Shown one piece after another: positions 20,047 through 53,049 of a stretch of 64,000 nt of DNA; the first letter of the stretch is position 1, and each line of letters begins with the position of its first letter. This stretch comes from Neodothiora populina (lineage: Eukaryota): positions 992,001-1,056,000 of the forward strand of contig NW_027191408.1 of the NCBI RefSeq assembly GCF_041146345.1. Reading direction: 5' to 3'. The position numbers and the translations under genes are program-made. The notes beneath the pieces were generated by a model that was not told the DNA's origin, did no database searches, and saw nothing but the letters and a program-made list of their open reading frames with translations.

Positions 20047-20529
20047 ACATTTCATGGGGTGGGAGCAGCTCTTTCTGTTCACGTTTCCCATTGGTCGGTC
20101 GACAAAAACGTAGGACATGGCATGGGAGCAAAGGGCCATAATATTGCAATGCTTATCATGTGCTTGCAGGAGAAGATACATTCATACATACTAATTTGGA
20201 TCTTTGGAAAAGGCGTTCTCTCAAGAAGAAGGCTTGGTATGACGGGGGAATAAGGAAACAACAGTATCCAAGGCGTGCATAAAACGCATCAGCGAGGAGT
20301 TGAGTTTCTAATTTTAATAATATATATATATATTATTTTCCTTCGAGGATCAACAATACATCTTTGATCTTATACAATATGAACACGAAAGAAGTGAAAG
20401 CGCACTGTCGAGGGCAGACGGCTTTCAAGCGATCAAAATAACAGTGGCACTTCGAGACGGTGATACGCTCGCAACACTAAACCAACAGTACCAGACGCCA
20501 AAGGAGACGGAAAAGCGACAAAAAGAGAA

Positions 20530-20648
20530 ACGTACAGCAGCTGGGATTCCCACGTGGTCACCCACCGTAGTACTAATCAGCCGGTCAACTGCTTATGTCT
20601 GGCAGAGCGGACGGGATGCCCAGTTCTCAGCTGCCTGTGGCCGTACGT
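20530..20648 (-). rRNA. 5S rRNA gene (dispersed copy A)
   Basis: 119 nt ACGTACGGCCACAGG...CCCGTCCGCTCTGCC...TTAGTACTACGGTGGGTGACCACGTGGGAATCC...GCTGTACGT. The ends pair as helix I, a T-rich tract follows (TTCTCTTTT), and TATAAT lies ~30 nt upstream. Confidence 0.95.
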
Positions 20649-23600
20649 AAGTTTACAACATGTTAGGGGAATTATTATACTTTGGATATGATTAGTCGTG
20701 GGGTCGAATAGTGATATCTTTCCGTCTGCTTTGCCAATGTTCGGCTTTTTCTAATATGTTGGTTATTCATGTATTTTGCTTTTTTTTAATGTTTTCGGTT
20801 CTTTTGCACGGCAAGGATGTTTGAACGTTGGAGGCTCGAGTAGATAGTTGCTTACGACGACAAGAATGTTCTCCTACTGGTTCACTGGTATTGTTGATGT
20901 AGTTGCTCTCAGCGGTGGCATATAGAAATGCAAATTGCCCGTCCTCTAAGAGATGGCTACAACAGCAAAGCAGGACCGAGCCAAGTTCTGTGTCATCCGT
21001 GGGTCGAGATTTCTTGCACCTACGCCCCATCTTGTCGTACGTACGTGCTTTTGCTCACAGGGTCCAAGCTAGGAACACAGTCGTCCCGTGTGCATGAGTC
21101 AAGATCGGTAGGTCGCGTGGGAGGGATTGATCTTGGATCAAGAGAGCACACTGCAGTGGCGGTCAACGTCGGGGAACATTATGAATCAATCACGTATTCA
21201 CTGGCTGGCCAGGCCAGGCCAGACCATGCATATTGGCATCGTTTTGCGCCCAACTTTTTGTCTCTCGTCGTGTTATAGTAATTCTGTGGGTAGGATTGAG
21301 TAGAGGCTTGGTGAAGTGGAGAGCGGTACGAGCTTGAATAAAATGAAATATGGGTGCAAAGTGGTTAGTGTGGACCCCTCTTTCTTGAAAGGGAGAAACG
21401 TCTGGAGCGAGCCTTCGAACAGTCGAGGCCGAGGAAAACCTGTGCGGCCTCGTTGCAGTTGGAACATCTGATATTAATGAGGCAAAAGAAAACTCCGTAT
21501 CTGAGGGCATGATGGACTTGAGCTGTCAGTGCGGAGGAAAAGAGTTGAATGTGCTCTGGGCGTGTGAAAGCCTCGATCTAATGTCGGTCATACTTCTTGA
21601 GCCCGATGAGAGAGGTTTCACACCTGCGTTTCATAGCCCAGTGTGCAGGTAGCAACTGCTGACGGCCGAGTGGCTCTAAGAACAAGGAGCAGCTGCTCTT
21701 CGGCAGGCCACGCACGTTCATGTTGACTTATACCTTCGTCACAGGAGACACAGTGCAGGAGACACAGTGCTGTGACTGGAGTCGAGCAATAGTATTAGTA
21801 TCCCCAAGCGGAGCCGATCATGCATCGTGCAATCTAAATCCCGACATAGAAGGTGGTCATGAGTCGGGTAAGTTGACTGGCATTCGCGGTTTGACTATGG
21901 TCCCGCGTCTCAAAATATGTCAGAAGGGATCAAGGTACTGCAGTACTGTTTTTTTCTACGCAATCATGTTGCGCAGAAGCCAGACAGACGACGCTATGCT
22001 TCAATCGGACATCACCATACCTCATTGTCTTGAAAGAAACCTGGAACCGGGTACAAGGATAGGAAAGGAGCGACGAGATCACCATCTGATATCCGTTACA
22101 CATTGCCTTTTGTCATATCAGCTGGCGATTGTAATCGACATGGTAATGTCTGTATATCGTCGAATAACAAAGTCAGGCTCTCAAATAACGACGAGATCAA
22201 CTTGGTCAAGTCAGTCCAATCATGTGTCCAGGCCGAATTGTTCTGCGTCAGGATGTGTGTACTTCGAGTCATTCTAAGCTTAGAGACAGTAAGCACAAGC
22301 ACAAGTGCGCTTTCCTGTTGCGAAGTCTCCACAGAAATCCAGTGCAGCCCTGGTGATGTGCCTACCAATTTGTATGAATGCAAAACATCTTCCCTGCAAG
22401 CTTTCTGGCCATCATGTCTGTTGACCCTGGGAAAACATGACAGCGTGGTATAAGCCTCTCGGACTCAGCATCCTTGGTTTAGCACCCACATCAGCTGGTC
22501 TATATCATTGGTACAGCATGCCAAACGATTCGCACTGAGTCGTGTCACTGAACAGCAAAGGCTAGGGGACAGAGACGACGACTGCCGGACTTTTGCCCTG
22601 ATGTCGCGACTCACGTTGTTTGGTACACCATGGAGTGCAATGTAAGTGTAGGCTGGCCCGGACTTGGTTCTGTAGCGTTTTGTACTGTGAGTCGACGGCA
22701 GAAGAGCAGTCTCAGTCGGGTCGGGTCGACCGGGCAAATACACTTTAATTATATGAACCTTATCCTGTGAACCGCGCAGGGTCCTCCAAGGAATGTTGAT
22801 ATGGACGTAATGACAACACAGTATGAAGCTCCGTCTACGAGTCCGTCTGGTTTCGCAGGGCCAGTAGATTCAAGCGGCAACTTCGGACCGGCGACGGGTC
22901 GATACTTAGCGCAACACGTACTTCACAGATAATCACGAAGGCCTGGTACTTGCTTGTACTGCGCGCTAAGCCCCGTGAAGAGTCCGGACTTCCAGTCCGA
23001 GTTCTCTTATAGGGACCACCCAAAGTTTACCTGCACACATCAGGATCCACTCAGCTCAGCCTCGACAAGCTTTTAAAGTAGCGGCCCTAGATACATGTGG
23101 CGCTGCTTGAGAACTGGGTACGATACGCCCTCTTCGCCTCCTACTTGTCAGGGAATTGCCGAGACGCCAGGTCTAACTGAACGAAGACGGGAGAAGAAAA
23201 TGGCGGTATCGATGAAAACGGAGAATGCGACAGATACTGAGGTACAGCCTCTTACAGACTGTAAAAGCAACGTCACCCTCTTCGAGTCATGAGCAAATGA
23301 CTGAGCCGGAATCGCGGCTTGTCACTATGCCTAAAATCTCATATGACCAACCAAATTCGATAGCGGATCATCAACTAGCCACCTTGAGATATTCCAGCGC
23401 CTTCCTTCGCTCTACGTTTCTGGTGACAGATGATCATGTCCCGTCAATATCGCACCGAGTCCTGGGTCATTGGTACGGTGATAGAGTCTAGTATCATTTC
23501 GGGCAGATCCTCACACTCCTAAGATTATCAGAATTGTAGGGTGTCACGCGGATTGTCCTCAACAAAGCCTTCCTAGACAGTCGAGTGAGAGACATCCGAG

Positions 23601-25374
23601 ACCATCAGTACATTCTGATTCGTGACATCGCCTTTCCCCAGCGATCCTAGGCTATCACTCGCTCTTTCACGACTGATCAGCATGGATCGTAGAAGTATGA
23701 ATGATTGAAAAATTGCTTCCTTACAGAAGACAATGCTTATGCATGCTTAGCTTCGGACGTAAAGCTAAGGACCTTAGGCTTGTGGGTGCTTACCTTAAGC
23801 AGCATTAGACTGCGTTAATTTTCACTTCTGTGACAACAAGGATAGCGAAACAATGTCAGCCCTTCCTTTGAATGCGCGTATTATGCAAGCCGACTTCAAT
23901 TTACACATCTGCTCAGTTTCTTTATCTAAAACTCAAAGCTTTGGTACCGTAGGCGATATGGTTTTGGTCATAAAGAGCAGCCTGTGATTTTGCAATGGGT
24001 CAATATCGCGCCGATAAGGGTTCTGTGGGCTTGCAATGACTCTGGAATCGGCCATCAAATTGTTTGTCGGATGGTGGATTAATGTGGGAGCGCGACACGA
24101 ATGTTTATTACAGGTGCTGTAGTGGTGTGTGCGGGGCTGCTGCAGGGCCAGCCAATCATATGACGCAGTGTTTCTTTCCCCTGCTGATCGCGGTTTCAAA
24201 CGAGAAGCGTTTGAGCCTCAAAGCTTGCAACGACGACGGCCCTCCACTTCTCAAACCCTCGATCCGATGCATGGTAAAGTGCTGTGGGAAACCCTACAGT
24301 CTTACTGCGGATATTTGCCTATCCAGCTTACGGTAATATACAGTGACAATCTTACAGACGTGAGATAGCTGCGCTTGTAGTTCCAATTCCCCGTCCTCGA
24401 ATGCAGGTTCCATGAAGTCAGGCCTGTCCGTCGAAGAGGCAAATGCCGATATGCTGAAACTTGCGTTGCCTCGAAGTCCGTCACATTGTGCTTGACTGGT
24501 AGCGTTCGCCATCCAGAATACCTAGGTAACCTGCATGCAACAATCGGACTAGATGAGGAGATGTACAAGTACTTGTGGCCGGGACAACTACTGCGTGGTA
24601 CTTTCCACCCAATGTTGAGCCACATTATCGACATGGTTCAAGTGGCATACCCCGACTAGTCTACTTGGGCTATTGTTCCACACAGCTTCCACGTTGTGGC
24701 CCTAAGGCGGGGACGTTGAACGACGATCTCGAATTAACTACAGGAACTGGTGCAGACAATAGCAAAACTCTCAAGACCTTCATTCTGAATTTCACACCAG
24801 GAAGCACGAGCGAATGTGGCACGCGGGCGATGACTCGTCAACCAAGTAGTCAACCCTTTGCTGGCTTCGTAGATCTGGTTGATTTTTACTAAAAGCGGCT
24901 CCTTCGTGATGATGAGGGTTTCTTGATCACCATACCCCAGAATACTAGCATATTGACTAGCTCCCTCGCCAATAGATGAACAGGATTCTGGTGGTGAGCA
25001 CGGTCATGGTGGTTCAGACAGAGTTAGATCAGGATGGGTTCCTTGCAAAGCAATGTAGTCCACTGGACTACTTATGCACCATGCTTCTCGCCGTTGATTG
25101 TTGTAACATGTATAGAACCCACAACGCATCACCTATTTTATGCTTCGCACTCCCTTCCTTTTGTCTCAACACACTGAACTCCCTTCGCCATACCTGCACG
25201 GTCCTGTGCCTATTGTCCCACCAGCTGAAGCACATTCGTTCAGCAGACCCTGGGCTTCCGGATACAGAGTCATTGTACGGGAGAAGCTAACTCGATTGCT
25301 GCTTTTCTGCTGGACTGGGACTACTCGAGAAAGCTCTTGCATCACACAGGGAACCTAAGCGTCTGGTCGCCATC

Positions 25375-26827
25375 ATGACGGTGCCGCCTCAATACTTCCC
25401 ATACCCTCTCAGCCAGAAGCCTTTGCCTGACGATCTGCGCCGAGGTCTCTATGCTCCTGGATTACTGGCTGTCTTGTCTACAGTGGGAACCGTTGCCCTC
25501 CTTTCCTTTATTGTCTATCGAATGACAACATGGCAACGACATTATCGGACGTATGTTAGAGCATGTATCTCACATGTCCAGAGGACTAATCCGTAATAGC
25601 TTCGTTGGATACAACCAATATATTGTTCTCATCATGAATCTTCTTCTCGCGGATTTGATCCAAGCTATCTCATTCTTGGTCTCTTTTCATTGGATTCGAC
25701 AAGACGCCATGCTTGCGCCTAGCACGGCCTGCATCTCCCAGGGGTTTCTGCTAAACATCGGCGACCTCTCATCAGGCTTCTTCGTCATGGCGATTGCACT
25801 TCACACTTTCTACACTGCTGTCAAAGGTCGCAGATTAGAGCACAACCATTTCATGTGGTCTGTCATCGCCACGTGGGGTCTCGCTCTCGTACTGAGTATT
25901 GTTGGACCAATAGCGTATGTCTTCTCCTTCGTACACTATATGTTGATACTGACTTTCTCCAGACATGGTAACAAATACTTTGTAAAAGCTGGGGCTTGGT
26001 GTTGGGCAGGTCCGTCCTACGAGAAGGACCGACTGGCTTTGCATTACATATGGATTTTCATCGTCCAATTCGGAACCATCATCATATACGCTGCTGTCCT
26101 GGTTCAACTCAAAACGGCCATGAGGGCCATTGTGCCTAGTATCCGTGCTCAATCTGACACTTTCGCCAAAGTCGATCATGCAGCGAGACTCATGGTTCTA
26201 TATCCTTTCTTTTACATCATCTTGACCCTCCCGCTGTCCGCAGGTCGGATGTGGAGTATGGCTCATAAGGGTACAGAATTACCGAACACCTATCAATGTG
26301 TTGCAGGAGCGCTTCTCTCCAGTTCGGGTTTCGTTGACGCTGCCTTGTACACTCTGACACGCAAGACGCTTTTGGCCGGTGGTTTATCCAAACCAATTCA
26401 CAGTCACAGACATCACATTAACGGAAAAGAGAGCAGTAAGAGCGGGGAAGTCAGTCTCTCTGATCTGCCAGGTGGTATCACTCAGACACGCACTGTCACA
26501 GTGACCGGTCATGTGTTGAAGTTCCCTATGGATGATGAAGAAGACCATCGTGGCAGAAATGTGGACAAGACAGTCTACCATAATTTCGAACGATCCAGCC
26601 ATAGCCCGACTGGGAGCCTCGATCCTATCATCGGTACTGTGGCCAATACAGTATCAGAGAAGACCCACGATAAAGGAGTCAAATTCGCATCCGATGTTCG
26701 CGTAACGGCCACCTCCCTAGACGATGTCAGTGACGATGATAATTCGACGAAGTCCATCAACGCGCACAAGACTTCTCCAAGCGGAGACAACAGGACAGAA
26801 TACAAGGATTTTTCCAGATCGGCATGA
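25375..26827 (+). CDS. Git3/cAMP-receptor-like 7-TM G protein-coupled receptor, ~451 aa; exons 25375-25550, 25600-25914, 25963-26827
   Basis: NQYIVLIMNLLLADLIQAISF, ACISQGFLLNIGDLSSGFFVMAIALHTF, YFVKAGAWCW, RLALHYIWIF, MVLYPFFYIILTLPLSAGRM, SSGFVDAALYTLTR match the fungal Git3-type GPCR pattern. Both introns are GTATGT..CTRAY..YAG. Confidence 0.85.
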
Positions 26828-28502
26828 GCGGGTAGGCATTTTGATGTTACGTATCGCGAGACCTTTCGCATTTTCAACAGATTTTCGGGCGGCCCCTTTT
26901 CCTTTTTACGAGATACCACTTTCAGATTTTCATTCTCATCGGATTATATCAGTGTTTTATGACCTGTGCCGTTAATTTTCAGTAATATGCAAATATACCA
27001 GAAAACAACATCTGTTGCTGAATCGAGTCCGCAGTGCAGGAATCCATACAGCAGGCACTTTTGCTGAGTCTTTAAAGATATTATCAGCTCAACTCGAACC
27101 GCTGCGTCACAGGCACATGCAAGTGGTCGAGCTAGTAATGATCGTTTATCGTTGCAGGTCCTCTAGGATTTGCATGCTCGGGCTTCGGATCGGGCGATTG
27201 GATGATCCAGTGCAGCACGACGATCAAATTCGCATGTCCTGCACTGCTCAAGCTGTTCAGATGCCTCTCTCACTTCTTCGCGATCGTTGCTATGCGCATT
27301 TTCTTAGGTGCGTTTTTTTTTCAGCGACTCTATATCGTCCGAGTGCCTGTACCGGAAGGGCGCAGCAGCACCGAGGACCCATCAAGAACATATTGCTCTC
27401 GCAGTCAACAGTTTCATTTCATCTTGGTTGGTAAATCAATCTACATTAAGTATTTTTCCGGATCTAGGAGGGCGCACAGACACCTCAATGGGGACAGTTC
27501 CGCTTTATATGCACCCTGTGCCATGGGACTGAGAAGCCATATTGATATGTTCAGGAGATGCAATTCATAATGTGTATCACCACGCACAGATGTGTTGTGG
27601 GTTTATCCTCCCACGTGTGAAAGAAGCGACTTCGCCAGTATGCTAAATTTCAGGAGTGGCTTAGATCTTATGTTGGGACCTTTGAATGATTGGAGAGGTG
27701 CGCAAATCGCTGCCTATATATAGACCTGGCATATGAATTGCTGCGACGAGCAACCTCTATATCTTGTACTTGCAGGACAGTTGTGGAGAGGTTACGCGTA
27801 GACGATTACATGCCAGGTTTGTCAAGTAGATTACTTACCCCACTGAGACACGCTCATACCTTTTCTTGTTTGAGCGCTATCTACTCCGTACTGTGTATCT
27901 GTCGTCGTTCGCGGCGCAAGAAGTGACAAAACTGCCAAGTCAGCCTCCAATGTGTATCATAGGGACACATGTTCACATTTCATTTTTATGCTCAAACCTA
28001 CAGCGTGTGGCCGTAGAAAGCTGCACTCCATTGATGCCGCATTTGTACCTGCGAGTGAGTTCAATAGTTCTCGACCGACACAGTCCTGGTGTCATCTCCA
28101 TCTCAATTGCGACGCGTGAGCCTTGCACACTATGCGAACAGGCACTCTCCATTTATTTACTATGCTCATGACAATGCTCGACGAAAGAATAAAATGAAGA
28201 CTTCAATCAGAATGGTAATGCTGCCTTACGTACTGGGGTAGAGGTGCCTATTGCCTACCTCCTGTGTACGTACTGCTGGATTTGTCGTTTTCGGACAACC
28301 CCTCGTGGCTCCTGCCCCGGCCCTGAATCATATTCTTGGCGCAGTGACGCGTGAATCGTAACATTGGGACAACGCACAGAAAAAACGAGGCGACCATTCT
28401 GTGCAACACTTCTCAGTACTAAAGAGGAGCATCAACGTTACATCTGACATCTATAACTCTCATTGAACCCCGTCGTAGTCCGTCTAGCAAGGGACACCAA
28501 AG

Positions 28503-29310
28503 ATGGTAATGATGAAAATACGTGGTCTTGGCATTGGGGTTCGGTTACTGACGCGCTTGTCCCTTAGGCTGAACAATTTGATGAAGAGCAGATGAAGGAG
28601 TTGAAGGAGGTTTTCAGAATTTTCGTACGTCAGGATGTGTACTCCCTCAGATTCAGAGTCGACCATATGCTCACGTTTCAGTAGGATAAAGACGGTGATG
28701 GTAAGTGTTTCTTTGGATCATCGTAGTCATGTCATGGTAGAACGAAGCGCTCATAATAGACCTATCCATAAAACTTCACGAATCGCTTGTAACTGGGTGG
28801 TGTACCTGTTTATTGACTTGTCCGGGCGTTTTCTAGGAAGCATATCTGTCCAGGAACTCGGCGAAGTCATGCGCTCGCTAGGTCTCAATCCGTCGGATGA
28901 GGACCTACATGACATCGTCAATGAGATTGACGTCGACAACACAGGCACGATCGAGTTCGAAGGTAGGTAGCCACGTCAGATTTGCTTGAAGTCGCACCCA
29001 ATAACACGGAACAGAGTTCTTCGCGATCATGTCACGAAAGGTCAAGAAGTCAGACACAGATTCCGAGCTGCGCGAGGCATTCAACATCTTCGACCGTGAT
29101 GGGAGCGGAACCATCAACGCCGAAGAGCTTCGCCAAGTCATGAAAGCTCTTGGGGAGGATCTCTCGAAGACCGAGATTGATGAGATGATCAAAGAAGCTG
29201 ACAAGAACGGCGACGGAAGTATTGATTGTAAGTCGACTTTGTGCTATGATGAAAATCGCTTGCTTACCTCGATGACTACAGATGAAGAGTTTGTCAGAAT
29301 CCTCCAATAG
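28503..29310 (+). CDS. Calmodulin-like four-EF-hand protein (divergent calmodulin paralog), 147 aa; exons 28503-28505, 28568-28624, 28685-28700, 28837-28962, 29015-29227, 29282-29310
   Basis: Spliced product [147 protein letters not shown]. Four EF-hand loops and five GT..AG introns; exon total 444 nt. Confidence 0.9.
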
Positions 29311-32300
29311 GCGTGGTGAAACGAGGCAGAACCGCGTATATCCATCCCCTTGATACCGGTGAATGGTTCAACGGATTCGCACAACATGCGTGTCTATCGC
29401 TTGGATCTTGGGAGGATTGCACCATCGCTATGGAATGATCATGGATAGGCCTAATCAGGTATTTGAGACTAATCAGGAACATTCATAAGGCCGGCGATAT
29501 TCCAAATCAATTGAGCATTACTACCATACTGCTCCCTTCTATTATCATATATCTCGTGCCTCATGTATCCCATGACTTCGGTGCCGTCGCCCTTGCGTGA
29601 AACACCATCCCTGCCCTAAGACCTTTTTGTTGGCCCGTAACAAGGTCGGCGACGAACGACAGCAATGAGTTAGAGCTGCAAACAAGAGATTCCAGGAATC
29701 TGAACTCAAAAGGTAAGGAACAATCAAACGTGTTGCGAACTTTTGACAGCATATTACACTCTCGCCCACTCGACATATACATAATGGGCCAGATGAATGT
29801 CTTAGACGAGCAGATAAAGGACGAAGCATGAAAATTTATCGAGGCACGAACCATTAGTCAGGTTGGATATCGAACTTGTCCGCTTGGAATGGTTGCGAAT
29901 TTTGCGCCTTGCTGTATGCTCAATGCTCTGGAGGTGCCACATCGGACCAGATTGGACGTATAGGCAATTGCATGTAAGAAGGAATTATGGTTTATCTGAC
30001 ATACACAAAATGTGGATTTGAGGGGAACCCTGTCTGTGTGTCATCCCGTCTCTGCTTGCCCGGCCTAGCACCTGCTCACTTTCGCAACTTACGAGGGATC
30101 CGCTGTTCGGTCTACGAGCGCACATTAGTTGCTTTGATAACATTCTTGGTCTCTATGCTATTGTTCTCAGATGGTGGATGTTGCGAGGTATCGGGAAAAT
30201 ACACTTCTTTCTGTATCAAGCGCCTGCGCAAACATTCTTGACCACCACTTCCTCAAGGCTTCCTTTCCTGGCAATATTGCATCCACCCTACGACTAGGGT
30301 GCAAGCCGAGGCCTCCATGGGAATGGGTGCGTGTCATCCCCAAGCATGTTGCAGCCTACGGTACAGTTGATCAAATGTTGTAGTACTTACCTTAGGCATC
30401 GAGCACATCTCAAGTAACGATGACTTCATTGGCCGGGTATCTCCTTGCCTCCAGCTTTAGGAAGTCCTACCATTGTGCTATAATCGTGTCATCCTGAAAG
30501 CCGATTGGATATCTTGTCGTCATTGCGAGGATGTTTGATGATCAAGACTGAGTTTCTCAACCTCATTGGTACGTTATAGCTGACCTTGAGGTTCCGTAGT
30601 CTGGGGGTGTAACACAACTATCAGCTACAGACCCAAAGTGGAATATCTCTTCCGAAAGAAGAGAGTAATGGCCGAGACTAGATATTGTAGGCAACAACGG
30701 AGTCTTACCATTCAAGCCCCGGAAGGTACAAATTGATGCGATGTGAAGCTACAGGTCTTCGTGCAGCAAGTTCATGCAGATCTTGGCGCGTTCCACATCA
30801 CCATGGTCACCTAAGATCGTACAATGTACATCCTGTTTTATATGTGATATATTTTGGTGTTGAGCTCTGTTAGATGCCGTAAGCAAGGCGAGGGCCAGGA
30901 AATAGGAGTCAAAACTGCGTACTGCTAAAATGCACAAGGCACAGACATGACATGAAGATGCCGAGCTGCGTCCCTGTTCACCTACGTCAATATTATATCT
31001 ATCAGTTGCACGAACATGTGAAGGGTTCCGCGAAATGGGATTGATGCTCGTGGAAATGCGAAAGATATCAATTGATGGCCGCAGGAGGACGCTCGGGCGT
31101 GAGCCTTGACTTCTACCCAAAGCTCGTTCGCATCACATATCCTGTTCGAGAAGTGCTTGCTCTTCATTCGTGAGACAGATCCTCGTGTCGTCGGTGTGGA
31201 CAGCCTTTCGTACTGGCACTAACACGATTGCGCAGTACTCTTTGCCAGCAAGTCACACATAAAGGAGTCCGAGCGATTAGCACAACTATATAATGTTGAG
31301 TCTTTCTTATCGGAAATTGAAAATGTGGCGCCTTGCTTCGAATACTCCTCTGCAGAGTACACAGCTTCATTAAGAATCTGATGATATAGGTATCATCAGG
31401 TGTTTGTACTCATTCTTGCAAGTATGCACAATTGCCCCAACACTGCGGTGTTGCCCAACTAGGGAGGATGAGACAAACTGGAGGCCAATGCGTTTATAAT
31501 AACACAGCGGCCGACTTCCTGGAAAGAGCTCATATCAGTATTCACGCGTTGTGTCTCATCTTCACTCATTCGCTGGGCTGAATGTCAAGTAGCGGGACCC
31601 GTGAGCTGTTGTATCCAGGGCCTGGAGAACAGGTAATGTAAATCTCAAGATTTTGACAAGTCGCACGTAGCGGTCTACTACTGCAACCCAAAGCTTCGCA
31701 AAGTCCATGACTGTGCTAGAGCACGAAGTGATTTGATAAGTGATCTCGTCGGAGTTTGTAGTTTCCGCAAGGAGAAACTTCAAACACGGGCTGATGGCTC
31801 TGATCTTCACATACCTTTAACTTTGCGCCGCCTACAAGGGCATGACACATTGACATCGAAAAAGCATGGAAACCTACGACACCCTTGCACACCACGGAAG
31901 ATGCAATTATTACCATATTTCCATGAGCCAGTGTATACCACACGGTCGTATGATATCATAGACTATTCAATGCCGTACCGCGCAGAATTTATGGGTTGGT
32001 GTTTGTGGAAGCTGTATCAGTCTACAACGTTCTTTTAAGAGGGGAAGCATTAATCGAGGCAGTAGGATCTCGCACACAAGGGAGGGCACCAAAAAGGGCA
32101 GTCGCATGAGTTCACTAATCAGTCCAATATCAAGGGTAAGCTACTGTAGGTATATGCTCCACAGTGGCCTACGATCTAGGACCTGCGCTTTGATATGCTG
32201 CTGTAGTCGTTGTGCAGATACTTGTACGGTGTACCAATGCGATGCGAGCCGAAGCCTTGTCGCAGCACGGAACACTTTTGCAACTAGAAAAAAAAAGCCC

Positions 32301-33588
32301 CACATAGACCCCACTACCTTGACAACGGTGTGATCATGATGTAAAGAGTCATTGAAGTGACGACGTGGTCGAGTTTCAAGTTTCATCATGGCATTCGGCT
32401 AGGAGACTGGACTGTTGTTTACAGTAAGGTAGCCAGTCGGCCTGCACTAGAAGGCTGCTCAAAGATAACGTCCAGTTGCATACTAAGTATGACCCAGCTG
32501 TCTCCGTACGCAACCCTTCATCCCCACTGTGCCGTTGCATGTGCATTCGAATGTGCACACCGGGACGTGTGTAGAGCTGTGGTCTATACATGTCACTTGC
32601 TCTATCACAATACGTAAAACTTGACCATATTTGCCCTAGGGACGCCTCGGATATACGACGGGCATGAGCACGGCATGCTGCCCGGGAATCGGTGCAGCCC
32701 CCTGTACGAGATATAGCCGTTGCCAGACACCTGTCATCCAAGCTGCTGGGAAAATCAAGGTTCGAAACACTTGGAGGATGTCACCAATGTAACCCGATCA
32801 CCATTGAGGCCAAGGATGCAAGCATAAATCCTACGAGCGTACAGTTAAAATCCTACCTACGCCTCGTGGGACATGCCTCCGTAGCGTGGCTACGGCTGTC
32901 ACCTGCTACGGCTAGTCAGCCAGACAACCTCTCAGATTTGATAATGGCCCCGTTTTATAGCACTCATTGCACACTATAATAGGGGTCGCGCAATTGCCGT
33001 GTCCATGTTCTGAACACTGCGTGAATTCCCATGGACGGATCGAACACATACAGGAACCCTTTCTAGACTCGAAACGCCGATCAGCAGCGGCGTGGCCCGA
33101 TCCCCCACGTGGGAACAAGCCCGAAGCCGAATGTCCACCGGATATTGGCCCTTCTCGAATGCACAGTATAGCGGAAGACACAAATTCTATACCAAAGCTG
33201 CCCATGACCATTTCGCTACGTTGACACAACCCGTCTCGGCTCTAGCAAGCCTGCGAAGGATGCAGAATCACTGGTACGCTTGAAAAATGTTCATTGGCAT
33301 CGTCTCACACGAGGATCTGGGGTAACGCCCGTGTTGCATGTCGAGTCAGGACAGTGGTCGAAATGAAATAATTATCGGCTTATTTTCGTAGACTCAGATC
33401 TGGTTCTACATTGTGAGATCTCGAACTGAGTGCCATCTCCGCGCTTGCCATGCAGCCGCTGGGGCGATAGATATACATAAGGCGGGCTCCTCTTGACTCG
33501 ATCGAGACAGTGCTGCTTTTCTTCTCCCTTGCCTTCATTCACCTCTGTAACATCGCATGCTCTTTATCGTCCCATCTATTTCTTCTAG

Positions 33589-34869
33589 ATGGCGACTACG
33601 ACTGGAGATTACCAACTTGCCGCTGCTGCTGCAGGCTTCACACTTGGTTTTGGTTTCTTGACGGTCTGGAAGGCTATTAAACAGACCAGGCAAAACAAGT
33701 CACCCTTACGCAGTGTATACGTTTATATGCTCTGGGGAGAGATCTTGTCCAACCTCATCATCGGTATCCTCGGATGGCTATTTCTTCACGAGGTGCTAGG
33801 CGCGACGTACGTTAGTCAATGACTCTTCGAGTGCATCATACTGATAGTCACAGTGCAATAGTGTTGTTTTGGATCCTCTTCTGCTATGTCTTCGAAGTGC
33901 AACTGCTACTTCAAATTATCATCAATCGAATCGCAATCTTCACCGAGCGTAGGAGCACTGCTACCTACATGAAATGGGGAACTGCCATTTTCATCACATG
34001 TGTGAACATTGTGGTTTTCTGCATATGGATACCCGCGCATATGGTCCCTCCTCCATCTGCGAAGTAGGTTCACTGGAGCTAATGTCTCTTGTGGTCCCTT
34101 GTTAACGGTCCAATAGACTTGTTCATATCAACGTATACTGGGATCGTGTCTCGAAGGTTCTCATTCTCCTTGTCGACGCCGGCCTCAATTGGTACTTTGT
34201 CCACGTTGTCAGCACCAGACTTGTCAAACACAACGGACTCAAGAAATACAAGTCCCTCATCAGATACTACACACGTCTGGGAGTCATCTCTGTCTGTATG
34301 GATGTAAGTCCTTCTAAGTCTTTTTTGCCTGTTGCGCGTGCTGACTCCTGTCCTAGATTATGCTTATCGGCTTGATGTCTTTGCGCAATCAAGTTGTGTA
34401 TATTCAATTCCACCCTGTCGCTTACATGGTAAAACTTAATATCGAAATGTCGATGGCAGACCTTATTGTCAAGATTGCTCGTTCTTCAGAAATCGACGTT
34501 CACGATATGTCATCTGGACCAAAAGGCCTGCCAGATACCAATACTATTGGCGGTTCGAAGGTGCCACCGGGCATGCACAGCGGTGTGCATGACTATGGTC
34601 CAGGTCAAGCATCGACTTTCAAAGCAGCGCATGCACCAATATCAGCGCAGGACCAAGCCGATAGAGATGATGTGAAAGGAATCACGCGGCAAAGAGAAGT
34701 CCAAGTCTACATCCAAGATTCAGATGGAGACTCATTAAAGATGGACAACCCCAAAAAGATGAGCAGGGATGATGGTCACGACCTTACACTGGAGCGCCAC
34801 CCCTCACGAACCTCCAATGGTTCGCAGATACCCTTGAAGGATATGCACCCACATAGTTCATATGCATGA
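33589..34869 (+). CDS. Uncharacterised fungal multi-pass (~7 TM) integral membrane protein, ~375 aa; exons 33589-33806, 33854-34063, 34117-34303, 34357-34869
   Basis: Three canonical introns join hydrophobic exons in frame: AAGFTLGFGFLTVW, YVYMLWGEILSNLIIGILGWLFL, FWILFCYVFEVQLLLQIIINRI, INVYWDRVSKVLILLVDAGLNWYF, VYIQFHPVAYMVKLNIEMSMADLI. A polar tail follows. TACATAA lies ~110 nt upstream. Confidence 0.85.
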
Positions 34870-36050
34870 GAGGGCTTTATCGAGGCCATCAGCAAGTGGC
34901 CTTGCGAAACGCATTCGAAGAGGGCAGAGGGAGGAAGCGGTCCCTCGCTTAGGGACTCTCGGTGCACGCAATTTCTACAGCAAGCAGGTGTCTATAGCAT
35001 GCAGACCCCTGCTGCATTCAGTGACTGGCTGGAGGAAGCAGAGCCTGCAAAGATACCCAGCATGCGGTGCATGCTTCGCCAGCCAGGATTTCGATTCTCA
35101 GACATGCGTTTAATTGATGTTTTGACATTCTCACCAGGATCAATAGAGCCGAGTTCGAGCCCCATCGACAGCCTGATCAACCACAAGCGGTCATCCGGAA
35201 CGACAGGGATTTCATTTGTAGCGATTTACAGGAGCTACCTCTCTCCACAGGAAGGGAGGACAGCCCGGAATTTTTTGTATATACCCCCCAGTTAATCACA
35301 TTATGAGTAACGATCGTCACACTGAGTTTTGAGGAGAGGCTCCATGACCGTCTACTGCCTTGACAATTTCTTCTGTCCCACAAGAATGCTGAAATTTTGC
35401 GGTCACACGACGCTGTTCTACGAGCTACTACTGTGCACGCACAGCCATAGACGTCCTAAGCTGTACCGGAGCCTTGGCCAAACATAATCTTGTGGCTGAT
35501 GTCTGATCTAAATTGAGCTTAGCCCATGCAGTCAACCCGGGAACACCGGACACCACAGTGGCCTACAGCTGCCATGTTCATATTCATTTGATCGCTTCAC
35601 GCTCGTACCAAAAAATCTTGCACTCTCCTGACTTGGTGGTCCACAGCGGATCCTGACCGTGAATTGCGCTAAGCCGGAGTGCTTGCACCTTTTTGCACTG
35701 CTGCTGTAAAATGTCCAAGTCCATGCTCGTGCCGATAATTTCTGACGCGTCTGAGTCATGGGCGATTTCCTCTGGCTCCTATCGAGGATTGAGCAGTTCG
35801 ATCCCCTCGAGAGAATAAGATGTCTCGATGGCCGATGCGCAGATGGCTGTGGGTGGGCTGCGTGATCAGGAACTAGTCTCACGGTCTCGAACCAGTATCT
35901 GCAGGAACAATCTATGTTATACAGTTTCACTAATCATTAACAGGACTCCGCTTTAGAAGTTGGAAGTTGGAAGATTTTTCAGAGAGGACCTCTGCACTCG
36001 TATCTGTTTAGGTGATTGTCTGTTCATCGTTATTGCAGTCGCAGGCTCTT

Positions 36051-37222
36051 CTACTGTCTCTTGTTTTCCTGAACTGCTTGCTCTAATTGTCCCAAGAATC
36101 TCCACCGGGTCTTTGCACCGGCATCTTTCTCATACCAGTCATTCAGGGTACCTTTTGGGAAGAAGTCGAGCACTGCCTCTACAGTAGGATCATGGGCAAT
36201 GATGATCAGTACATTTTCTGCACTGTCAAACTCTTGTAGTCCTGCGATGCTCCAATTGGCCGCCTCTAAATCGTGGTTGAAGTCCTTGCTCATACTGAGA
36301 AAAGGCGCATTGGCACTCTTACCACAGTGGACATCTACGAATAGATGACCAGGGCATACTGTTGCCACAGTGTGCGGGATCGGCGAGGGGACGAGATTGG
36401 TCGGGATAGGAAGATACTCGGATGGCCTCAGCTCACCCGCGTGGTGTGACGCGTCGCCACCCAGGAAGACAAAAGTTGGCGGTAAGACTGTAGTTCTAGC
36501 CAGACCACACATGTGGCCTACCATGTGGCCTGGTGTATCAAGCAGATAGAATGAGCCGTCGCCAAAGTAATCGTGAGCGTCGAATCGGCCAATTTTCAAG
36601 CCTTGCTTGAAATCAATCTCGTGCAGCTCACGATCTTGAAAGTCATGCGCGAAGACGTCTGACTTCTGATTTTCCGGATACGCAGGCAGGAAACCTTCTT
36701 TGAAGCCCTTGCCAACCACGAGTTTCGTGGAGGTGGGGAAAGTAGTCAAGTCTCCAATATGGTCAAAGTGGGGATGACTCCAGATAACGGTGTCAACAGC
36801 ACCATCTCGAACCGGGATGCCGTTCTCCTCCAGAATCTCACTGACGTTTTTTTTGATATCGAAGGTGGCGCCAATATGTTTGGCAAGTGCGACTATACCG
36901 GGTGGCAGGTTCTCCCAATCCTTCCTGATTCCGAGATCGAAAAGTACGCGTTCTCCATCATGCTCAATGAGGAAAGAGAAGCTAGGCCCGCTGAGGCGTT
37001 CTGTTCCCTTGTATGTTGGTGTATGAAATAGATGAGACGGGAAGGAAAAGCGCGAAGTGCTATCTCATCACGTCAACAACTTGTGATGCGGGGGCATTCA
37101 TATCGAATCGATCACTCAGTTCGAACTTACGTATCGATAATCGATATCCTTACGGCATTGTTCGATTTGGGTATATTGAGTCTAGCAGGAGCCTTCGGTG
37201 GTACTAGTGTAGATTCACTCAT
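36051..37222 (-). CDS. Metallo-beta-lactamase-fold hydrolase (N-acyl homoserine lactonase/lactamase-like), ~366 aa; exons 37222-37131, 37059-36051
   Basis: The frame continues upstream of the ORF-track start: SFLIEH..VLFDLGIRKDWENLPP..VIWSHPHFDHIGD (HxHxDH), then DYFGDGSFYLLDTPGHMVGH, LGGDASHH, IIAHD. Intron GTAAGT..TAG (37130-37060) follows RISIIDT. Confidence 0.9.
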
Positions 37223-38809
37223 CTTCGGCGGAATGATACAAGCACGACGTCCGTAGGCAGACAAAAGTTGCGACGCTCGAGTAGGTGAGTTGTAACAATA
37301 AAATCACCAAATAGAGCTGCCTTAGTATAGTGGCAGCGACGATGCACTAGTAAAGTATCAGAGTAAGACTGATGTCGCACATCCGGGACCCGGACACGGA
37401 GAGTCAGGTTCCGAGACACAGGCACTATGGGGAACGGGAGGCCTGGATTTGATAAAGGAGTGCAAGATGGAGTCGTCTGCTGTTGTGCTTTTTTGTATAC
37501 GGGACCATGCATACGAGTAGCATGTTACATCGGGGCAACTCTTCCGCTGTGGGTCATTTCTAACTTACTTGGTCAACGCGTACTTATGGCTGATGTACAA
37601 GGAATTAAACTGCAAGGTATGAAATGTTCTAAGTCTTCGTCGCATAGCCCGGCCTGTTCCATATTACTGCTTGCCCAGCTATATCGATTGAATATCGTCG
37701 GTGACCAGGCCTGAGTGTACATCTAGAAAGTTTGTTTGTAATAACCACATTCGATTATGATCCAAGCCTTGGATGTCTTCTGTGTGCTGTGCAGACGACG
37801 ACTTTAATCACTACTTTACCTCACACGTGCGTCTGTGATATATGCGACACTACCTTATGAGATAGTTCGTCCTCACAACATGATCCTGGTGAGCTTCCTA
37901 TGCTATCCTGGCTTCGCAAAGTGTGTGCATGTCTTACCTCAGCTTTGGGTCATTACTATAATGCCATTTATATCCCTGTCACTCTCACTCACTGTGTCCT
38001 GCCGATCATATTCTGATCTTCCCATCAGGGTCCTCTCCGTGCTCGCGTCATCTCGGTCGGTTTCTGCTCGAGCTCACGTTATTCAGCAGTTAGAGAGAGG
38101 CGCTTATATCCGGGTCAAGGCAGTCACGATCACTTTCAAGCCACATGCTGGGCGAGGACCTTGTCATAAGCACCTGCTTTGGTCAACGCCATTTATGTTC
38201 CGATTAAAAGGGGCACCGACGACTCCGATGTGGAAGTACTTGTACATCAGTATATACGAAGGCTATCATGATCTCTGTATCTAGGTAGCCTAAAGGTATT
38301 TGATTCACCGTTCCGCCACGATTATGACCCATCCAAGTATGGAGTCAAGTGATCTATGATTGAAGATCTTGATCTACGAAGTCTCGAATTGCGTGCATAC
38401 CCTGATGTTCGAGGAGAACGACAGACCTTCGCAATCAAGCAGGATCAACAAAATAGGGACACGCTTCATATGCTGGTGTGTGAATAGCAGTAGAGGTAAA
38501 TATACTCTATGTGCACGAATATCCTCCTTGTTCTCGTTCGATAGCCTCAAAATTGCTCCAAGGTAGACATAATCACCATATTGGATGGAAATACACGGCG
38601 CAGAGTGGGTACTCCTGTCTGATAATGTTTGCACTACTTCAAGTGATCATGGGTCTACTCCTCATACTTTGACAGTAATGGAGATGGCTCAAGAGAGCGA
38701 CCGCAATAGATCTTGTGTCAATGTGTTGCCTACTTATTGACAACATGACTAATTGTAAAAGTCACACTTACAAGGAGCAATCTGGTCGGACTCCGGTCGA
38801 ATGTTTACA

Positions 38810-39948
38810 TCAAATATCTGCGAACCAAGGGTGCTTCAATGCTTGGACCGCTGTGATTCTCTTCACAGGATCAAGATTCATCATGCCTCGAATGATATCT
38901 CTAATGCCTGTGTCTTTGATCTCTTGCCAGTCAGAGAATGGCGAATAATGGCATTGTTCGTCATTTCGATCTTCCCAAAGCATTTGCAAGACTTGGCAGC
39001 TGATCTCATCATCGCAAATATGCTTCATGAGTCCATGAACTCCTTCCCCATTTCCAAAGTAAGAGACTTGTCGTTGCAAGTGGATCAAAGCAGGGAGGGC
39101 GCCCTGTGTTTCATGAAATTTGAAGTCATCATCGATGGCAAAGATGACGCGCTCAAGAATGGCATAGATGCACAGAGGTTGTCAGTAAGCAGACCTCCGT
39201 CTCATGGAAGCAATACGTACTGTTATGCCGAAGGAGAATATATCAGAGGGCTTGTTAAGTTCGCCTTTGCAGTGCCCTTCTGGGCTGCGCCAGCTGTCGT
39301 TGCCTGGCAGCATGCCTTTGATACATCTTCCCACGGGAAGATATGCTGCATTTTCAAGGTCAGTGATTTGGGTATTCTCGATCAACGGTTCCTGTGAATC
39401 GTGTCGGTAGTCGACCAGAACGTTGTCAGGCTTGGTATCTACCTCGTGTTATCATTTATAGTCTCGAGAGCTACAAGAAGGCGACGTTAAAGATTTACCA
39501 AGATGAACGATGTCTTCAGAATGTAATTCGGCAATTCCTTGAAAGCAGCCTTCAATATTCTCCGTTTGACCCGGACGTTGATTTGCTTTTTTATAAGAAA
39601 ATAGAAGTCATCTGTCAAGTATTTGTAGACAAGTATGTTCTCTTGCGGGATGTGGTCAACAGGCCCTCGTATGTGCGGGCTGTGGGGCAGTCGAGGTTGT
39701 ACGTTCTCCTTGGAATTGGTGAAGATATTCTTTGGGACATCCTTCAGAATGTTATGATCTTGTCCAGATCTGTAAGAGTGTCAGTGTGCAAGGAGACAGT
39801 CCACTTAGCCCTGATACCCGGTAGTTGCTAGCCAAACGCGGCCGAAGTCTTCTCTCTCCTGTATGAGCTCCTTGAAATGGTAGTGTCGGCCAGTAGAGCC
39901 CGTCATGTCGAGCGCCCTGGCCATCGTCTTGAGACTTCTTGAAAGCAT
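38810..39948 (-). pseudogene. Fungal protein kinase-like gene with a frameshift and a lost splice acceptor (probable pseudogene, or assembly errors)
   Basis: Kinase motifs GRVWLA, ILKDVP, LVYKYLTDD, IVHLDTKPDNVLV, ITDLENAA, GNDSWRSPEG, KPSDIFSFG, MNLDPVKRITAVQALKHPWF. The frame shifts at ~39541-39543 (ILKAA|QGIAELHSEDIVHL needs one extra base). The third intron ends in CTG rather than CAG (39175-39173). Confidence 0.8.
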
Positions 39949-40256
39949 GACCAAGGGACAAGGCGAATGATAACTCGTCCAAGTAGACTCGAGAACTGAC
40001 ACCCAAGCTGGAATGCACACTCAGGTCGATACTTCAGCTCTGCGCGCGCAATAGTCAGTGGGCATGTCCAGTGATTTATTCGACATGTGCAAGGAGGTTA
40101 AAGCCTTGTACGACTGATGATTGAACGCTAGTGGCTTAAACAACCTGTCTTCATAGTCTCTCTACCGACATGTTGCACTGTAGCAAAGAGATGCACGGCC
40201 AAGAGATGATCAATTTATCTCAACGTACATATACGATCTTCAACGCTGTGTGTTTC

Positions 40257-40375
40257 ACGTACGACCACAGGCAGCTGAGAACTGGGCATCCCGTCCGTTC
40301 TGCCAGACATAAGCAGTTGACCGGCAGATTAGTACTACGGTGGGTGACCACGTGGGAATCCCTGCTGTTGTACGT
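40257..40375 (+). rRNA. 5S rRNA gene (dispersed copy B)
   Basis: 119 nt, 114/119 identical to copy A. Terminal helix ACGTACGAC/GTTGTACGT, TACATATA ~30 nt upstream, TTATTTT shortly downstream. Confidence 0.95.
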
Positions 40376-40421
40376 TGCGTTATTTTGTTCTTGACCGCGT
40401 AGCAAACAAGCGACTGTTATT

Positions 40422-42213: not shown

Positions 42214-42883
42214 TGTATATGTGACTCGATCGACTTGGGATGAGAGTAAAGTAGTTGTGGCATTCGAGGCAAGATTTTCTCCGTTAGAGTGGGTGGCGGA
42301 AGAGCTACTGCCAATCGATCGGCAATGTCGTTGGACCATTCCGATAAGCGGCCCGGATAAGAGGTCGTTTCTCCACATTCCGTCATACTCCTCTTTGTCC
42401 TTTGCACCACATCTACCGGTCTACTGCTTCAGGTTCAATGCGATACGCCATACAAATATTTCAATCTGGTTGTCAACATTGCCTGGACTTCAAGCCATCG
42501 GTTCTCAGCCTATGTCGCAATCCGGTCTATCCGAAGACCGGATACAGCCCTGCATGTAAGGGGTCGTATTGCTCCTAGAAAAACCTCAAGGTTCAACGTC
42601 CCCCCACAAAAAGTCCCAATCGATAGCGTTGCTATGGCAGACCTGCTTGTTTTGCTGCAACCAACCATGTCCATAGCTACCATGCATCTGTACATAACCT
42701 ACCTCAGTTGTCCTCGTCCTTGAGAGAAAAACGTTTCTTGTCTTCATCTCTTGGGTCAACGTACTTCAGTCCACAATCCGTCCGTTTTGCTATTTCCGTT
42801 GCTCATCGAGCATAATATTCGCGTCTGATTGGCATTCTTCCCTTTGCACATCAACTTTCATTTGGTGGTAGCCGCCGTGCAAG

Positions 42884-52771: not shown

Positions 52772-53049
52772 CCGGCTGTTTAAGCGCATTGGAGTGTAAC
52801 TGCTCGTGACGGATTGGGAAATACTTCTTGACCCCCGTTTCGAGATCGAGTCTGATACAAATACAACGATCTCCTCGCAACAACTGTCGTACAACATCCA
52901 AACCAGTTGTGCATCGGTTCAAAAACGACCTCGTTTGCCTGTCTCCGCTGTCTTACTACAACTCTCTTTTCCTCTCTATCTTCCTAGATCCTCTTACACA
53001 GTAGAAACATATAGTCCTTTTCCTCTCTCAAGCTTTGCATACCCGCTCG

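What the first reader, a model, noticed from the sequence alone, without database searches (positions are those of the whole stretch)
20530..40375. ~19.6 kb gene-poor signalling island bracketed by two inverted, outward-facing 5S rRNA genes
Seen: 5S copy A (minus strand, 20530-20648) and copy B (plus strand, 40257-40375) form a 119-bp, 96%-identical inverted repeat. Between them only ~4 kb is intact coding sequence, and every gene is accessory or signalling-like (GPCR, calmodulin paralog, 7-TM protein, MBL lactonase, kinase pseudogene). Conserved housekeeping genes (CSF1, ARH1) abut the outer sides. Established: dispersed 5S genes are normal in filamentous ascomycetes, and some Starship elements target 5S rDNA. 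Inference: the 5S genes may act as boundaries, insertion targets or inversion substrates for a variable island. No recombinase was seen and both 5S copies are full length, so chance placement remains possible.
Basis: partly seen in the sequence, partly recalled or inferred. Interest (0 to 1): 0.7.

Follow-up and report, generated by a model that had tools for sequence, protein, structure and literature searches.

The report
Two ordinary 5S genes, variable interval
Two of this fungus's roughly 47 scattered 5S ribosomal RNA genes lie at the edges of a gene-poor stretch of chromosome whose gene content differs between related species; the stretch shows no sign of being a mobile or flippable island, although 5S genes in this genome do cluster and lean towards gene-poor regions.

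Summary
Observation confirmed. Two full-length 5S genes (20529-20648 minus, 40257-40376 plus; 115/120 identical) face outwards around 19.6 kb holding 4,029 nt of intact coding sequence (four genes) and a kinase pseudogene, between CSF1 and ARH1 of a Dothideales fungus.

A 5S-bounded island is not supported. The genome has 47 5S matches. Copy A is identical to eight copies elsewhere but not to B, and no flanks are shared. The interior is single-copy, with no recombinase or Starship captain. The GPCR is an old neighbour of CSF1 (2-12 locus tags away in Aureobasidium and NU459). In A. pullulans the 10 kb 3' of CSF1 holds other accessory-type genes and no 5S. A second study's sample carries near-identical pieces of the interior. 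An outward pair this close arises by chance with probability 0.43.

What remains: 5S copies cluster (8 pairs within 25 kb, 2.2 expected) and sit in somewhat gene-poorer DNA, and a second locus (C2) has the same anatomy. Best reading: ordinary dispersed 5S genes at the edges of an old, plastic interval. A role as inversion substrates could not be tested. The scan's notes held no earlier report of this.

The parts
10213..20046 (+). CSF1 (BLTP1/Csf1-family lipid-transfer protein), main exon; its stop lies 482 bp from the 3' end of 5S A
   Evidence: Pfam Csf1_N and Csf1_C; region 2700-3277 is 100% identical to P0001, labelled Neodothiora populina
20529..20648 (-). 5S rRNA gene A, full length; TATA-like TATAAT at -31 to -26 and a T-run downstream; a common sequence type of this genome
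   Evidence: Rfam 79.2 bits; flanks; 120/120 identical to 8 of the other 43 copies compared
20649..25374 (.). 4.7 kb without a recognisable gene; upstream region of the GPCR
   Evidence: no Pfam hit in stop-to-stop ORFs of 66 aa or more; no coding-model segment scoring 9 or more; no second copy in the genome
22064..22466 (-). short spliced transcript piece (joint with CT..AC ends and a 16-nt inner exon); function unknown
   Evidence: one contig of run X3 at depth 2.5
25375..26827 (+). Git3/Gpr1-like G-protein-coupled receptor, 451 aa, 3 exons; old neighbour of CSF1
   Evidence: model identical to P0292; Pfam 7tm_1 and GPR_Gpa2_C over cut-off; locus tags of relatives
28503..29310 (+). calmodulin-like EF-hand gene, 147 aa, 6 exons (the first is the ATG alone); spliced in RNA-like contigs
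   Evidence: Pfam EF-hand; joints in X3; open model; its C-terminal half is 56% identical to a second EF-hand gene on C8
33589..34869 (+). integral-membrane protein, 375 aa, 4 exons; family unsettled (DUF7703 is a lead only)
   Evidence: open model; no Pfam family over cut-off; ESM Atlas 0.87; no contig of X3 over it
36051..37222 (-). metallo-beta-lactamase-fold hydrolase (lactonase-like), 366 aa, 2 exons; one paralog on C17
   Evidence: Pfam Lactamase_B; ESM 0.97-0.98 to fungal MBL/AHL-lactonase clusters; intron spliced in X3; paralog
38810..39925 (-). protein-kinase pseudogene, still transcribed: a frameshift in the N-terminal half and an intron-like stretch without an AG acceptor that stays in the RNA contig (5' end approximate)
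   Evidence: Pfam Pkinase pieces; frames; X3 contig 38794-39756 has stops in all three frames
40257..40376 (+). 5S rRNA gene B, full length; TACATATA at -31 to -24 and a T-run downstream; a minor sequence type shared with copies on C17, C6 and elsewhere on C5
   Evidence: Rfam 77.3 bits; 119/120 to C17:427155, 118/120 to C17:150548 and C6:346245, 115/120 to A
40519..42200 (-). ARH1, NADPH:adrenodoxin oxidoreductase; its stop lies 142 bp from the 3' end of 5S B (5' end approximate)
   Evidence: 100% to P0121; homologs named adrenodoxin reductase

Best explanation
A and B are two independent, probably functional members of a dispersed 5S rRNA family of about 47 copies. Each sits just beyond the 3' end of a protein gene, which is the usual position of 5S genes in this genome. 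CSF1 and ARH1 point towards each other across an old, plastic interval. Its resident GPCR has stayed near CSF1 across Dothideales while other accessory-type genes have come and gone; in this species the interval is mostly long upstream regions, four genes and a decaying kinase. The inverted repeat is a by-product of two 5S genes on opposite strands (a one-in-four orientation), not the ends of an element. Shown: family size, independence of A and B, single-copy interior, no recombinase, old linkage of the GPCR and ARH1 with CSF1, clustering of 5S copies. Inferred: that 5S copies accumulate where gene-free room and turnover allow it, and that the long spacers are regulatory or eroded DNA.
For: 47 5S matches in 24 Mb (union; one search reports 47 candidates). 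A is identical to 8 other copies and differs from B at 5 sites; no flank similarity among 44 copies; TATA-like and T-run signals on both. Of 9 pairs within 30 kb, 3 face outwards, 1 inwards and 5 the same way, as random orientation predicts. Of 39 contacts under 1 kb between a 5S gene and an ORF of 250 codons or more, 30 are with a 3' end, 15 tail-to-tail and 15 in tandem (my hand count). The interior has no second copy except an MBL paralog. The only DUF3435 locus found is on C4, with no 5S in the 20 kb fetched around it. GPCR homologs lie 2, 3, 6 and 12 locus tags from CSF1 in A. subglaciale (3 strains), A. pullulans (1 and 2 strains) and NU459. CSF1 and ARH1 share a 66.6-kb contig in Aureobasidium sp. 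EXF-3400 and are 7 tags apart in Neophaeotheca. A. pullulans contig L001 has five other genes and no 5S in the 10 kb 3' of CSF1. Run X2, from a second study, holds interior pieces at 99% or more (11 of 12 laid contigs). An 8.2-kb gap without a long ORF lies at 44980-53200 of the same window with no 5S.
Against: 5S copies cluster more than uniform placement predicts (8 pairs within 25 kb vs 2.2; p 0.0009). The three outward-facing close pairs enclose the three lowest coding-model coverages of the 9 close pairs (0.04, 0.10, 0.12) and rank 1, 3 and 4 of 9 by ORF>=150 coverage. The C2 pair has the same anatomy: SNF2 helicase, 5S, a near-empty 7 kb with a glutamine-synthetase fragment, 5S, RanBP1-domain gene. 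The nearest long ORF downstream of a 5S gene is convergent in 27 of 36 cases, or 26 of 39 and 25 of 38 by the coding model (p 0.05-0.07). The DNA 3' of CSF1 is not collinear with A. pullulans, so a synteny break does lie at or near 5S A. In fission yeasts 5S genes were found at 12 of 19 breakpoints (PMC6168568, passages).
Confidence: 0.66

Rival explanations
1. The 5S genes are active causes of the interval's plasticity. Ectopic recombination between the 120-bp, 96%-identical inverted copies, or between either and other copies, has inverted or exchanged the interval by host repair enzymes alone, so 5S genes mark rearrangement breakpoints in this lineage.
For: The repeat has the geometry needed for an inversion that leaves both genes whole. 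Gene order 3' of CSF1 differs from A. pullulans. 5S copies cluster and outward pairs enclose gene-poor DNA. Precedent: 12 of 19 breakpoints between two fission yeasts carry 5S genes (PMC6168568); wtf genes spread through 5S genes (PMC9562144); Dothideomycete gene order changes by intrachromosomal inversions (PMC3516569).
Against: A and B are not homogenised: A matches eight distant copies better than it matches B. The slot beside CSF1 varies in Aureobasidium with no 5S in the 10 kb seen. Outward orientation is not enriched among close pairs (3 of 9). No joint that changes strand was listed in three runs, but their contigs end inside the 5S genes, so this says little. Published Dothideomycete breakpoints were linked to simple repeats.
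Confidence: 0.2
2. The two Pol III genes act as chromatin barriers that separate a silent or conditionally expressed domain from the housekeeping genes on either side. TFIIIC-bound tRNA genes as barriers in yeasts is recalled knowledge, not tested here.
For: Both 5S genes lie within 500 bp of the 3' ends of CSF1 and ARH1. The C2 locus has the same layout. Two contigs of another Aureobasidium carry a tRNA match about 520 bp 3' of CSF1 on the same strand as 5S A.
Against: Three of the five interior loci are covered by spliced contigs of run X3, so the domain is not silent. GC (48%) is close to the control mean (51%) and there are no repeats. Most 5S copies are not paired. A. pullulans L001 has no Pol III gene in that position. 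Sitting near 3' ends is the genome's norm.
Confidence: 0.08
3. The interval is a mobile element or its remnant: a Starship inserted at 5S, a wtf-like 5S-flanked cassette, or a composite element with 5S genes as terminal inverted repeats.
For: Its size falls within the reported Starship range of 15-511 kb, and 23% of Starship insertion sites were in 5S rDNA (PMC11162782). The genome has one DUF3435 locus. MBL and kinase are cargo-like genes (inference).
Against: No captain, transposase or recombinase in the interval. Both 5S genes are whole and inverted, whereas Starship target sites are internal and leave direct repeats and many wtf units have direct 5S repeats. The interior is single-copy. 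The GPCR is an old neighbour of CSF1. A second study's sample holds interior pieces.
Confidence: 0.04
4. The arrangement is an assembly artefact: a misjoin or a wrongly oriented segment at the repeated 5S genes.
For: Short-word contigs break at both 5S genes, so their data do not fix the orientation of the interval.
Against: Depth is even at 31-38 across the interior in X1. The GPCR's linkage to CSF1, and to ARH1 on one 50.7-kb contig of a relative (P0294 and P0158, same longest-contig length), places these genes here independently.
Confidence: 0.02

Closest known systems
Dispersed 5S rRNA gene families of filamentous ascomycetes (Selker et al. 1981; Rooney & Ward 2005; both seen only as cited in passages of PMC5555474)
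   Same: Dozens of single, dispersed copies with several sequence types and unrelated flanks; 47 matches here against the 50-200 quoted for fungi.
   Different: Nothing essential. Few copies look broken here (44 compared, 43 aligning ungapped at 110-120 of 120 to B); the clustering and the lean to 3' ends of genes were measured here and not looked up for other species.
5S rDNA at rearrangement breakpoints in fission yeasts (S. octosporus vs S. cryophilus, 12 of 19; PMC6168568, passages)
   Same: Dispersed 5S genes next to a place where gene order differs between relatives.
   Different: There breakpoints were mapped by whole-genome alignment; here no sister genome could be aligned, and the neighbouring slot also varies in a relative that has no 5S there.
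wtf-5S rDNA units of S. octosporus and S. osmophilus (PMC9562144, passages)
   Same: Non-core genes lying between two 5S genes.
   Different: wtf units are multi-copy with similar intergenic DNA, many have direct 5S repeats, and the syntenic empty site has one 5S. Here the repeats are inverted, the interior is single-copy and 19.6 kb long.
5S-targeting Starships (Enterprise, Arwing, Voyager families; PMC11162782, passages)
   Same: Size range; 5S sequence at the borders of accessory-looking DNA.
   Different: No DUF3435 captain at either end, no split 5S gene, inverted and not direct repeats, and a resident GPCR inside.
Mesosynteny of Dothideomycetes (PMC3516569, passages)
   Same: CSF1, the GPCR and ARH1 stay on one chromosome region while order and spacing change: 5 to 44 accessions or tags between CSF1 and ARH1 in several relatives.
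   Different: That paper ties inversion breakpoints to simple repeats; 5S genes do not appear in the passages read.

Membership tests
Dispersed 5S rRNA gene family | Full-length 5S gene that fits the 5S structure model | tested here: met
   RF00001 positions 1-120, 79.2 and 77.3 bits against a cut-off of 38
Dispersed 5S rRNA gene family | Many single copies over the genome with unrelated flanks | tested here: met
   47 matches on 14 of 18 contigs; no blastn hit among the 300-bp flanks of 44 copies
Dispersed 5S rRNA gene family | Upstream TATA-like box near -30 and a downstream T-run (features recalled from Pol III 5S genes) | tested here: met
   seen by eye on A, B and most other copies
Dispersed 5S rRNA gene family | Transcription of these two copies | not testable with these tools
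   only contigs were available, and they cannot assign short RNA to a copy
Starship | DUF3435 tyrosine recombinase (captain) at the 5' end | tested here: not met
   the only PF11917 locus found is C4:1189556-1190921; none on C5; no recombinase among 111 ORFs of the interval
Starship | Short direct repeats at the borders; a 5S target split internally | tested here: not met
   both 5S genes whole and on opposite strands; no direct repeat pairs the two borders
Starship | Presence/absence between strains with a clean empty site | tested here: inconclusive
   a second study's run holds interior pieces at 99% or more in 11 of 30 bins, but gives no order or position
wtf-like 5S-flanked cassette | 5S genes in direct orientation around a unit that is repeated in the genome | tested here: not met
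   inverted orientation; interior single-copy
Invertible segment | Inverted repeats at both ends | tested here: met
   129-nt arms, 93% complementary
Invertible segment | A dedicated recombinase in or next to the segment | tested here: not met
   none among the ORFs scanned in the interval (111) or the rest of the window (68)
Invertible segment | Both orientations present in reads or strains | not testable with these tools
   all contigs laid end inside the 5S genes; no long reads were served
5S-marked synteny breakpoints (fission-yeast type) | Breakpoints against a sister genome map onto 5S genes | tested here: inconclusive
   order 3' of CSF1 differs from A. pullulans, but that genus is too distant (CSF1 C-terminus 66-68% identical) and no sister genome could be aligned
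Pol III chromatin barrier | Change of chromatin state at the gene, dependent on its promoter | not testable with these tools
   no ChIP data

The most novel reading that the evidence does not exclude
In Dothideales, dispersed 5S genes are the preferred borders of plastic intervals: outward-facing pairs (C5 here, C2:1202437/1209569, C12:44199/66981) enclose gene-poor DNA with accessory genes and pseudogenes between housekeeping genes, and ectopic recombination between 5S copies supplies part of the inversions and gene turnover behind Dothideomycete mesosynteny, without any element-encoded recombinase.
Probability: 0.2. Interest if true: 0.6.

Novelty: new member of a known kind. Interest (0 to 1): 0.24.

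Why it matters
On the best reading it matters little: it is an ordinary pair from a dispersed 5S family and a reminder that such families create long inverted repeats by chance. If the novel case held, it would name a concrete substrate for the inversions behind mesosynteny, whose mechanism PMC3516569 (2012) calls unknown, and it would be directly testable by aligning one sister genome and counting breakpoints at the 47 5S sites.

Tried and rejected
1) Remnants of lost genes in the spacers: Pfam on 111 stop-to-stop ORFs of 66 aa or more gave hits only in the five known loci; tblastx of the interval against all fetched loci gave only the MBL paralog, the other pieces being low-complexity; a protein-like 92-aa frame at 24381-24656 matched only two long repetitive proteins (25 and 6 summed stretches) and was rejected. 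A stop-read-through Pfam scan of the spacers was not completed, so broken remnants are not fully excluded.
2) Synteny from DNA: 80 metagenome loci at the 3' end of CSF1; 4 are Aureobasidium-like, only L001 with 10 kb downstream. None of the 80 had a tblastn hit to the interior genes or ARH1, and none a 5S hit by nhmmer; Rfam on 18 of the 80 found no 5S. The rest of L001's contig was not held, so whether the GPCR lies 5' or 3' of CSF1 in Aureobasidium is open; accession numbers were ambiguous on this.
3) An orientation rule for 5S genes as the cause of the outward pair: 27 of 36 downstream neighbours are convergent, but within 1 kb of a 3' end tail-to-tail and tandem are 15 and 15, so I do not claim a rule.
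4) A 5S-targeting Starship elsewhere: no whole or partial 5S in C4:1176000-1195999 around the DUF3435 locus.
5) Centromere: rejected, since the interval has four intact genes and spliced transcripts.
6) No RNA holder was listed by the run search; X3 is on record as 'DNA?' but shows spliced joints. No X3 contig covers the GPCR or the membrane protein; this is no evidence on expression.
7) No tRNA in the window. ARAGORN did not confirm the Rfam tRNA match in L007/L010.
8) Earlier notes of the scan: four look-ups, nothing on this finding.
9) Literature: six searches listed no paper on 5S genes at rearrangement breakpoints in Dothideomycetes; the library lacks most subscription journals and supplements were not read.


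Full report
Observation. Rfam finds exactly two RNA genes in the window, both full-length 5S rRNA: A at 20529-20648 (minus) and B at 40257-40376 (plus). They agree at 115 of 120 bases and form the window's only long inverted repeat. Each is transcribed away from the 19,608 bp between them and towards the 3' end of a housekeeping gene, CSF1 on the left and ARH1 on the right. The interval holds four intact gene models totalling 4,029 nt (20.5%): a Git3/Gpr1-like GPCR, a calmodulin-like gene, a membrane protein of unsettled family and an MBL-fold hydrolase. A kinase locus has a frameshift and an intron-like stretch with no AG acceptor; a contig of run X3 splices one intron but keeps that stretch and has stops in all frames, so it is a transcribed pseudogene. 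X3 also shows spliced joints for the calmodulin-like and MBL genes. CSF1, the GPCR and ARH1 match database proteins labelled Neodothiora populina (Dothideales) whose locus tags run n, n+1 and n+6.

Is it gene-poor? Yes. A codon model trained on this genome covers 0.10 of the interval against a mean of 0.49 in 40 random 10-kb controls (lowest 0.09, next 0.27). The model undercalls genes with unusual codon use (my gene models give 0.205) and has 2-6% false coverage on reversed DNA. A model-free measure agrees: ORFs of 150 codons or more cover 0.28 against 0.60. One control (L159) proved to hold a 5S gene; it stayed and was dropped. Gene-free stretches also occur without 5S: 44980-53200 in this window has no ORF of 200 codons or more.

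Are the two 5S genes a unit? The genome (24 Mb, 18 contigs) has 47 5S matches (union); 44 were compared in detail, the last three being found later. A is identical to eight copies on other contigs and B is 118-119/120 to copies on C17 and C6, so A and B are not each other's closest relatives. No two copies share flanks, and both A and B have a TATA-like box near -30 and a T-run behind. With 47 copies placed uniformly, at least one outward pair within 25 kb appears in 43% of simulations. Of the 9 pairs within 30 kb, 3 face outwards, 1 inwards and 5 the same way. Lying close to a gene's 3' end is normal here: 30 of 39 contacts under 1 kb with a long ORF are with a 3' end, half tail-to-tail and half in tandem (hand count; long last exons may inflate this).

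Is the interior mobile? It has no second copy in the genome apart from an MBL paralog on C17. No recombinase or transposase was found among 111 ORFs of the interval. The only Starship-type DUF3435 locus is on C4, without 5S sequence in the 20 kb fetched around it. Starship sites in 5S are internal and leave direct repeats (PMC11162782, passages); many wtf units have direct 5S repeats and they are multi-copy (PMC9562144, passages). Neither fits. Depth over the interior is even in X1, which may be the source of the assembly. Run X2, from another study, has low-depth contigs over 11 of 30 bins, 11 of 12 of them at least 99% alike and including non-coding parts. That shows presence of pieces in a second sample, not their order.

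Synteny. No sister genome could be aligned, so I used locus tags, accessions and metagenome contigs. The best GPCR homolog lies 2 tags from CSF1 in three A. subglaciale strains, 3 or 6 tags in three A. pullulans strains and 12 tags in Dothideomycetes sp. NU459. In some other assemblies the two have distant tags (D6D24, EXF-3400, EXF-12344, EXF-12298), which may be contig breaks or real separations. CSF1 and ARH1 share a 66.6-kb contig in EXF-3400 and a 140.6-kb contig in one A. pullulans strain, are 7 tags apart in Neophaeotheca and 40-44 accessions apart in Teratosphaeria and Polychaeton; they are on different contigs in A. subglaciale and NU459. A GPCR and an ARH1 homolog of an unnamed closer relative both report a longest contig of 50,699 bp. 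So the neighbourhood is old and the GPCR is a resident. The content is not fixed: in A. pullulans contig L001 the 10 kb 3' of CSF1 holds a zinc-type dehydrogenase, a WD40 protein, a hydrophobin, an FAD monooxygenase and a fungal transcription factor, with no homolog of the interior genes and no 5S. Whether the GPCR is 5' or 3' of CSF1 there is unresolved. This picture of retained linkage with changed order matches mesosynteny (PMC3516569, passages).

5S copies cluster: 8 pairs within 25 kb against 2.2 expected (p 0.0009). Their surroundings are modestly gene-poorer than controls (0.39 vs 0.49, p 0.004; p 0.03-0.05 by ORF measures). The three outward pairs enclose the three lowest model coverages of the 9 close pairs and rank 1, 3 and 4 by ORF>=150 coverage. 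Leaving out our own pair, which was picked for this trait, two pairs remain (1 in 28 by rank on the model measure). The C12 interval is less empty than the model says, since Pfam finds a lyase, an MFS transporter, a Zn2Cys6 factor and an oxidoreductase in it. The C2 pair repeats our anatomy closely. In fission yeasts 5S genes stood at 12 of 19 breakpoints (PMC6168568, passages). These facts keep a causal role for 5S open but do not show it; 5S copies may simply persist where intergenic room exists.

Mechanism and verdict. Most likely (0.66) two independent 5S genes settled behind the 3' ends of CSF1 and ARH1, at the edges of an old interval in which accessory-type genes are gained, lost and decay. 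The inverted repeat could in principle be used by host recombination to flip the interval (0.2 that this has mattered); the contigs available end inside the 5S genes and cannot show it. A barrier role (0.08), a mobile element (0.04) and a misassembly (0.02) are less likely. It is a new instance of known things: dispersed 5S genes (PMC5555474, passages) beside a variable interval. Six literature searches listed nothing on 5S genes at Dothideomycete breakpoints, and passages of a recent inversion study in Sphaerulina contain no mention of rDNA or rRNA (PMC12778737); supplements were not read. The genome-wide test is cheap and would settle the novel case.

Noticed in passing
G000:C2:1202437-1209688 (L081, L082): A second outward-facing 5S pair with the same anatomy: SNF2-family helicase gene pointing in, 7 kb almost without coding sequence but with a 110-aa glutamine-synthetase fragment, and a RanBP1-domain gene pointing in from the other side. 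The two copies are 118/120 alike and share a minor variant.
   Followed up: partly
G000:C12:37822-67100 (L083-L086): Three 5S genes in 29 kb on a 138-kb contig, among accessory-type metabolic genes (esterase, GH3, sugar transporter, beta-eliminating lyase in three overlapping frames, MFS, Zn2Cys6 factor, oxidoreductase, RNase H pieces).
   Followed up: partly
G000:C17:150548-560308: Seven 5S genes all on the minus strand, six of them within 156 kb, all of the B-like sequence type; suggests local duplication or conversion.
   Followed up: partly
G000:C4:1189556-1190921 (L171): The genome's only DUF3435 (Starship captain-type) locus found, about 52 kb from the contig end, in two pieces with one TAG inside the first; no 5S sequence within the 20 kb fetched.
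   Followed up: partly
G000:C7:83626-83745 (L159:4010-4129): A divergent full-length 5S type, 87.5% identical to B yet scoring 78.5 bits in Rfam, without an obvious TATA-like box at -30. Two more divergent matches at C6:2456281 and C16:1091860 were not examined.
   Followed up: partly
L007:9770-9860 and L010:9506-9596: In two contigs of an Aureobasidium species an Rfam tRNA match lies about 520 bp 3' of CSF1 on the minus strand, the position and strand that 5S A has here; ARAGORN did not call it.
   Followed up: partly
window 44980-53200: 8.2 kb without an ORF of 200 codons or a coding-model segment, upstream of a Myb-domain gene (53206-54423); no 5S or other Rfam gene.
   Followed up: no
window 22064-22466 and 23198-23472: Low-depth contigs of run X3 in the gene-free spacer, one spliced as a minus-strand transcript with a 16-nt inner exon; possibly non-coding RNA.
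   Followed up: no
window 28503-29310: The calmodulin-like gene begins with an exon that is the ATG alone, as fungal calmodulin genes do (recalled), and has a 16-nt micro-exon at 28685-28700.
   Followed up: partly
window 42872-44980: A 702-codon ORF next to ARH1 with no Pfam family at E up to 1.
   Followed up: no
L009, L013, L034, L058, L063: In Cladosporium-like contigs the Ost-alpha transporter gene lies 3' of CSF1, whereas here it lies 5' of it (7066-8580): a local inversion within the conserved neighbourhood.
   Followed up: no
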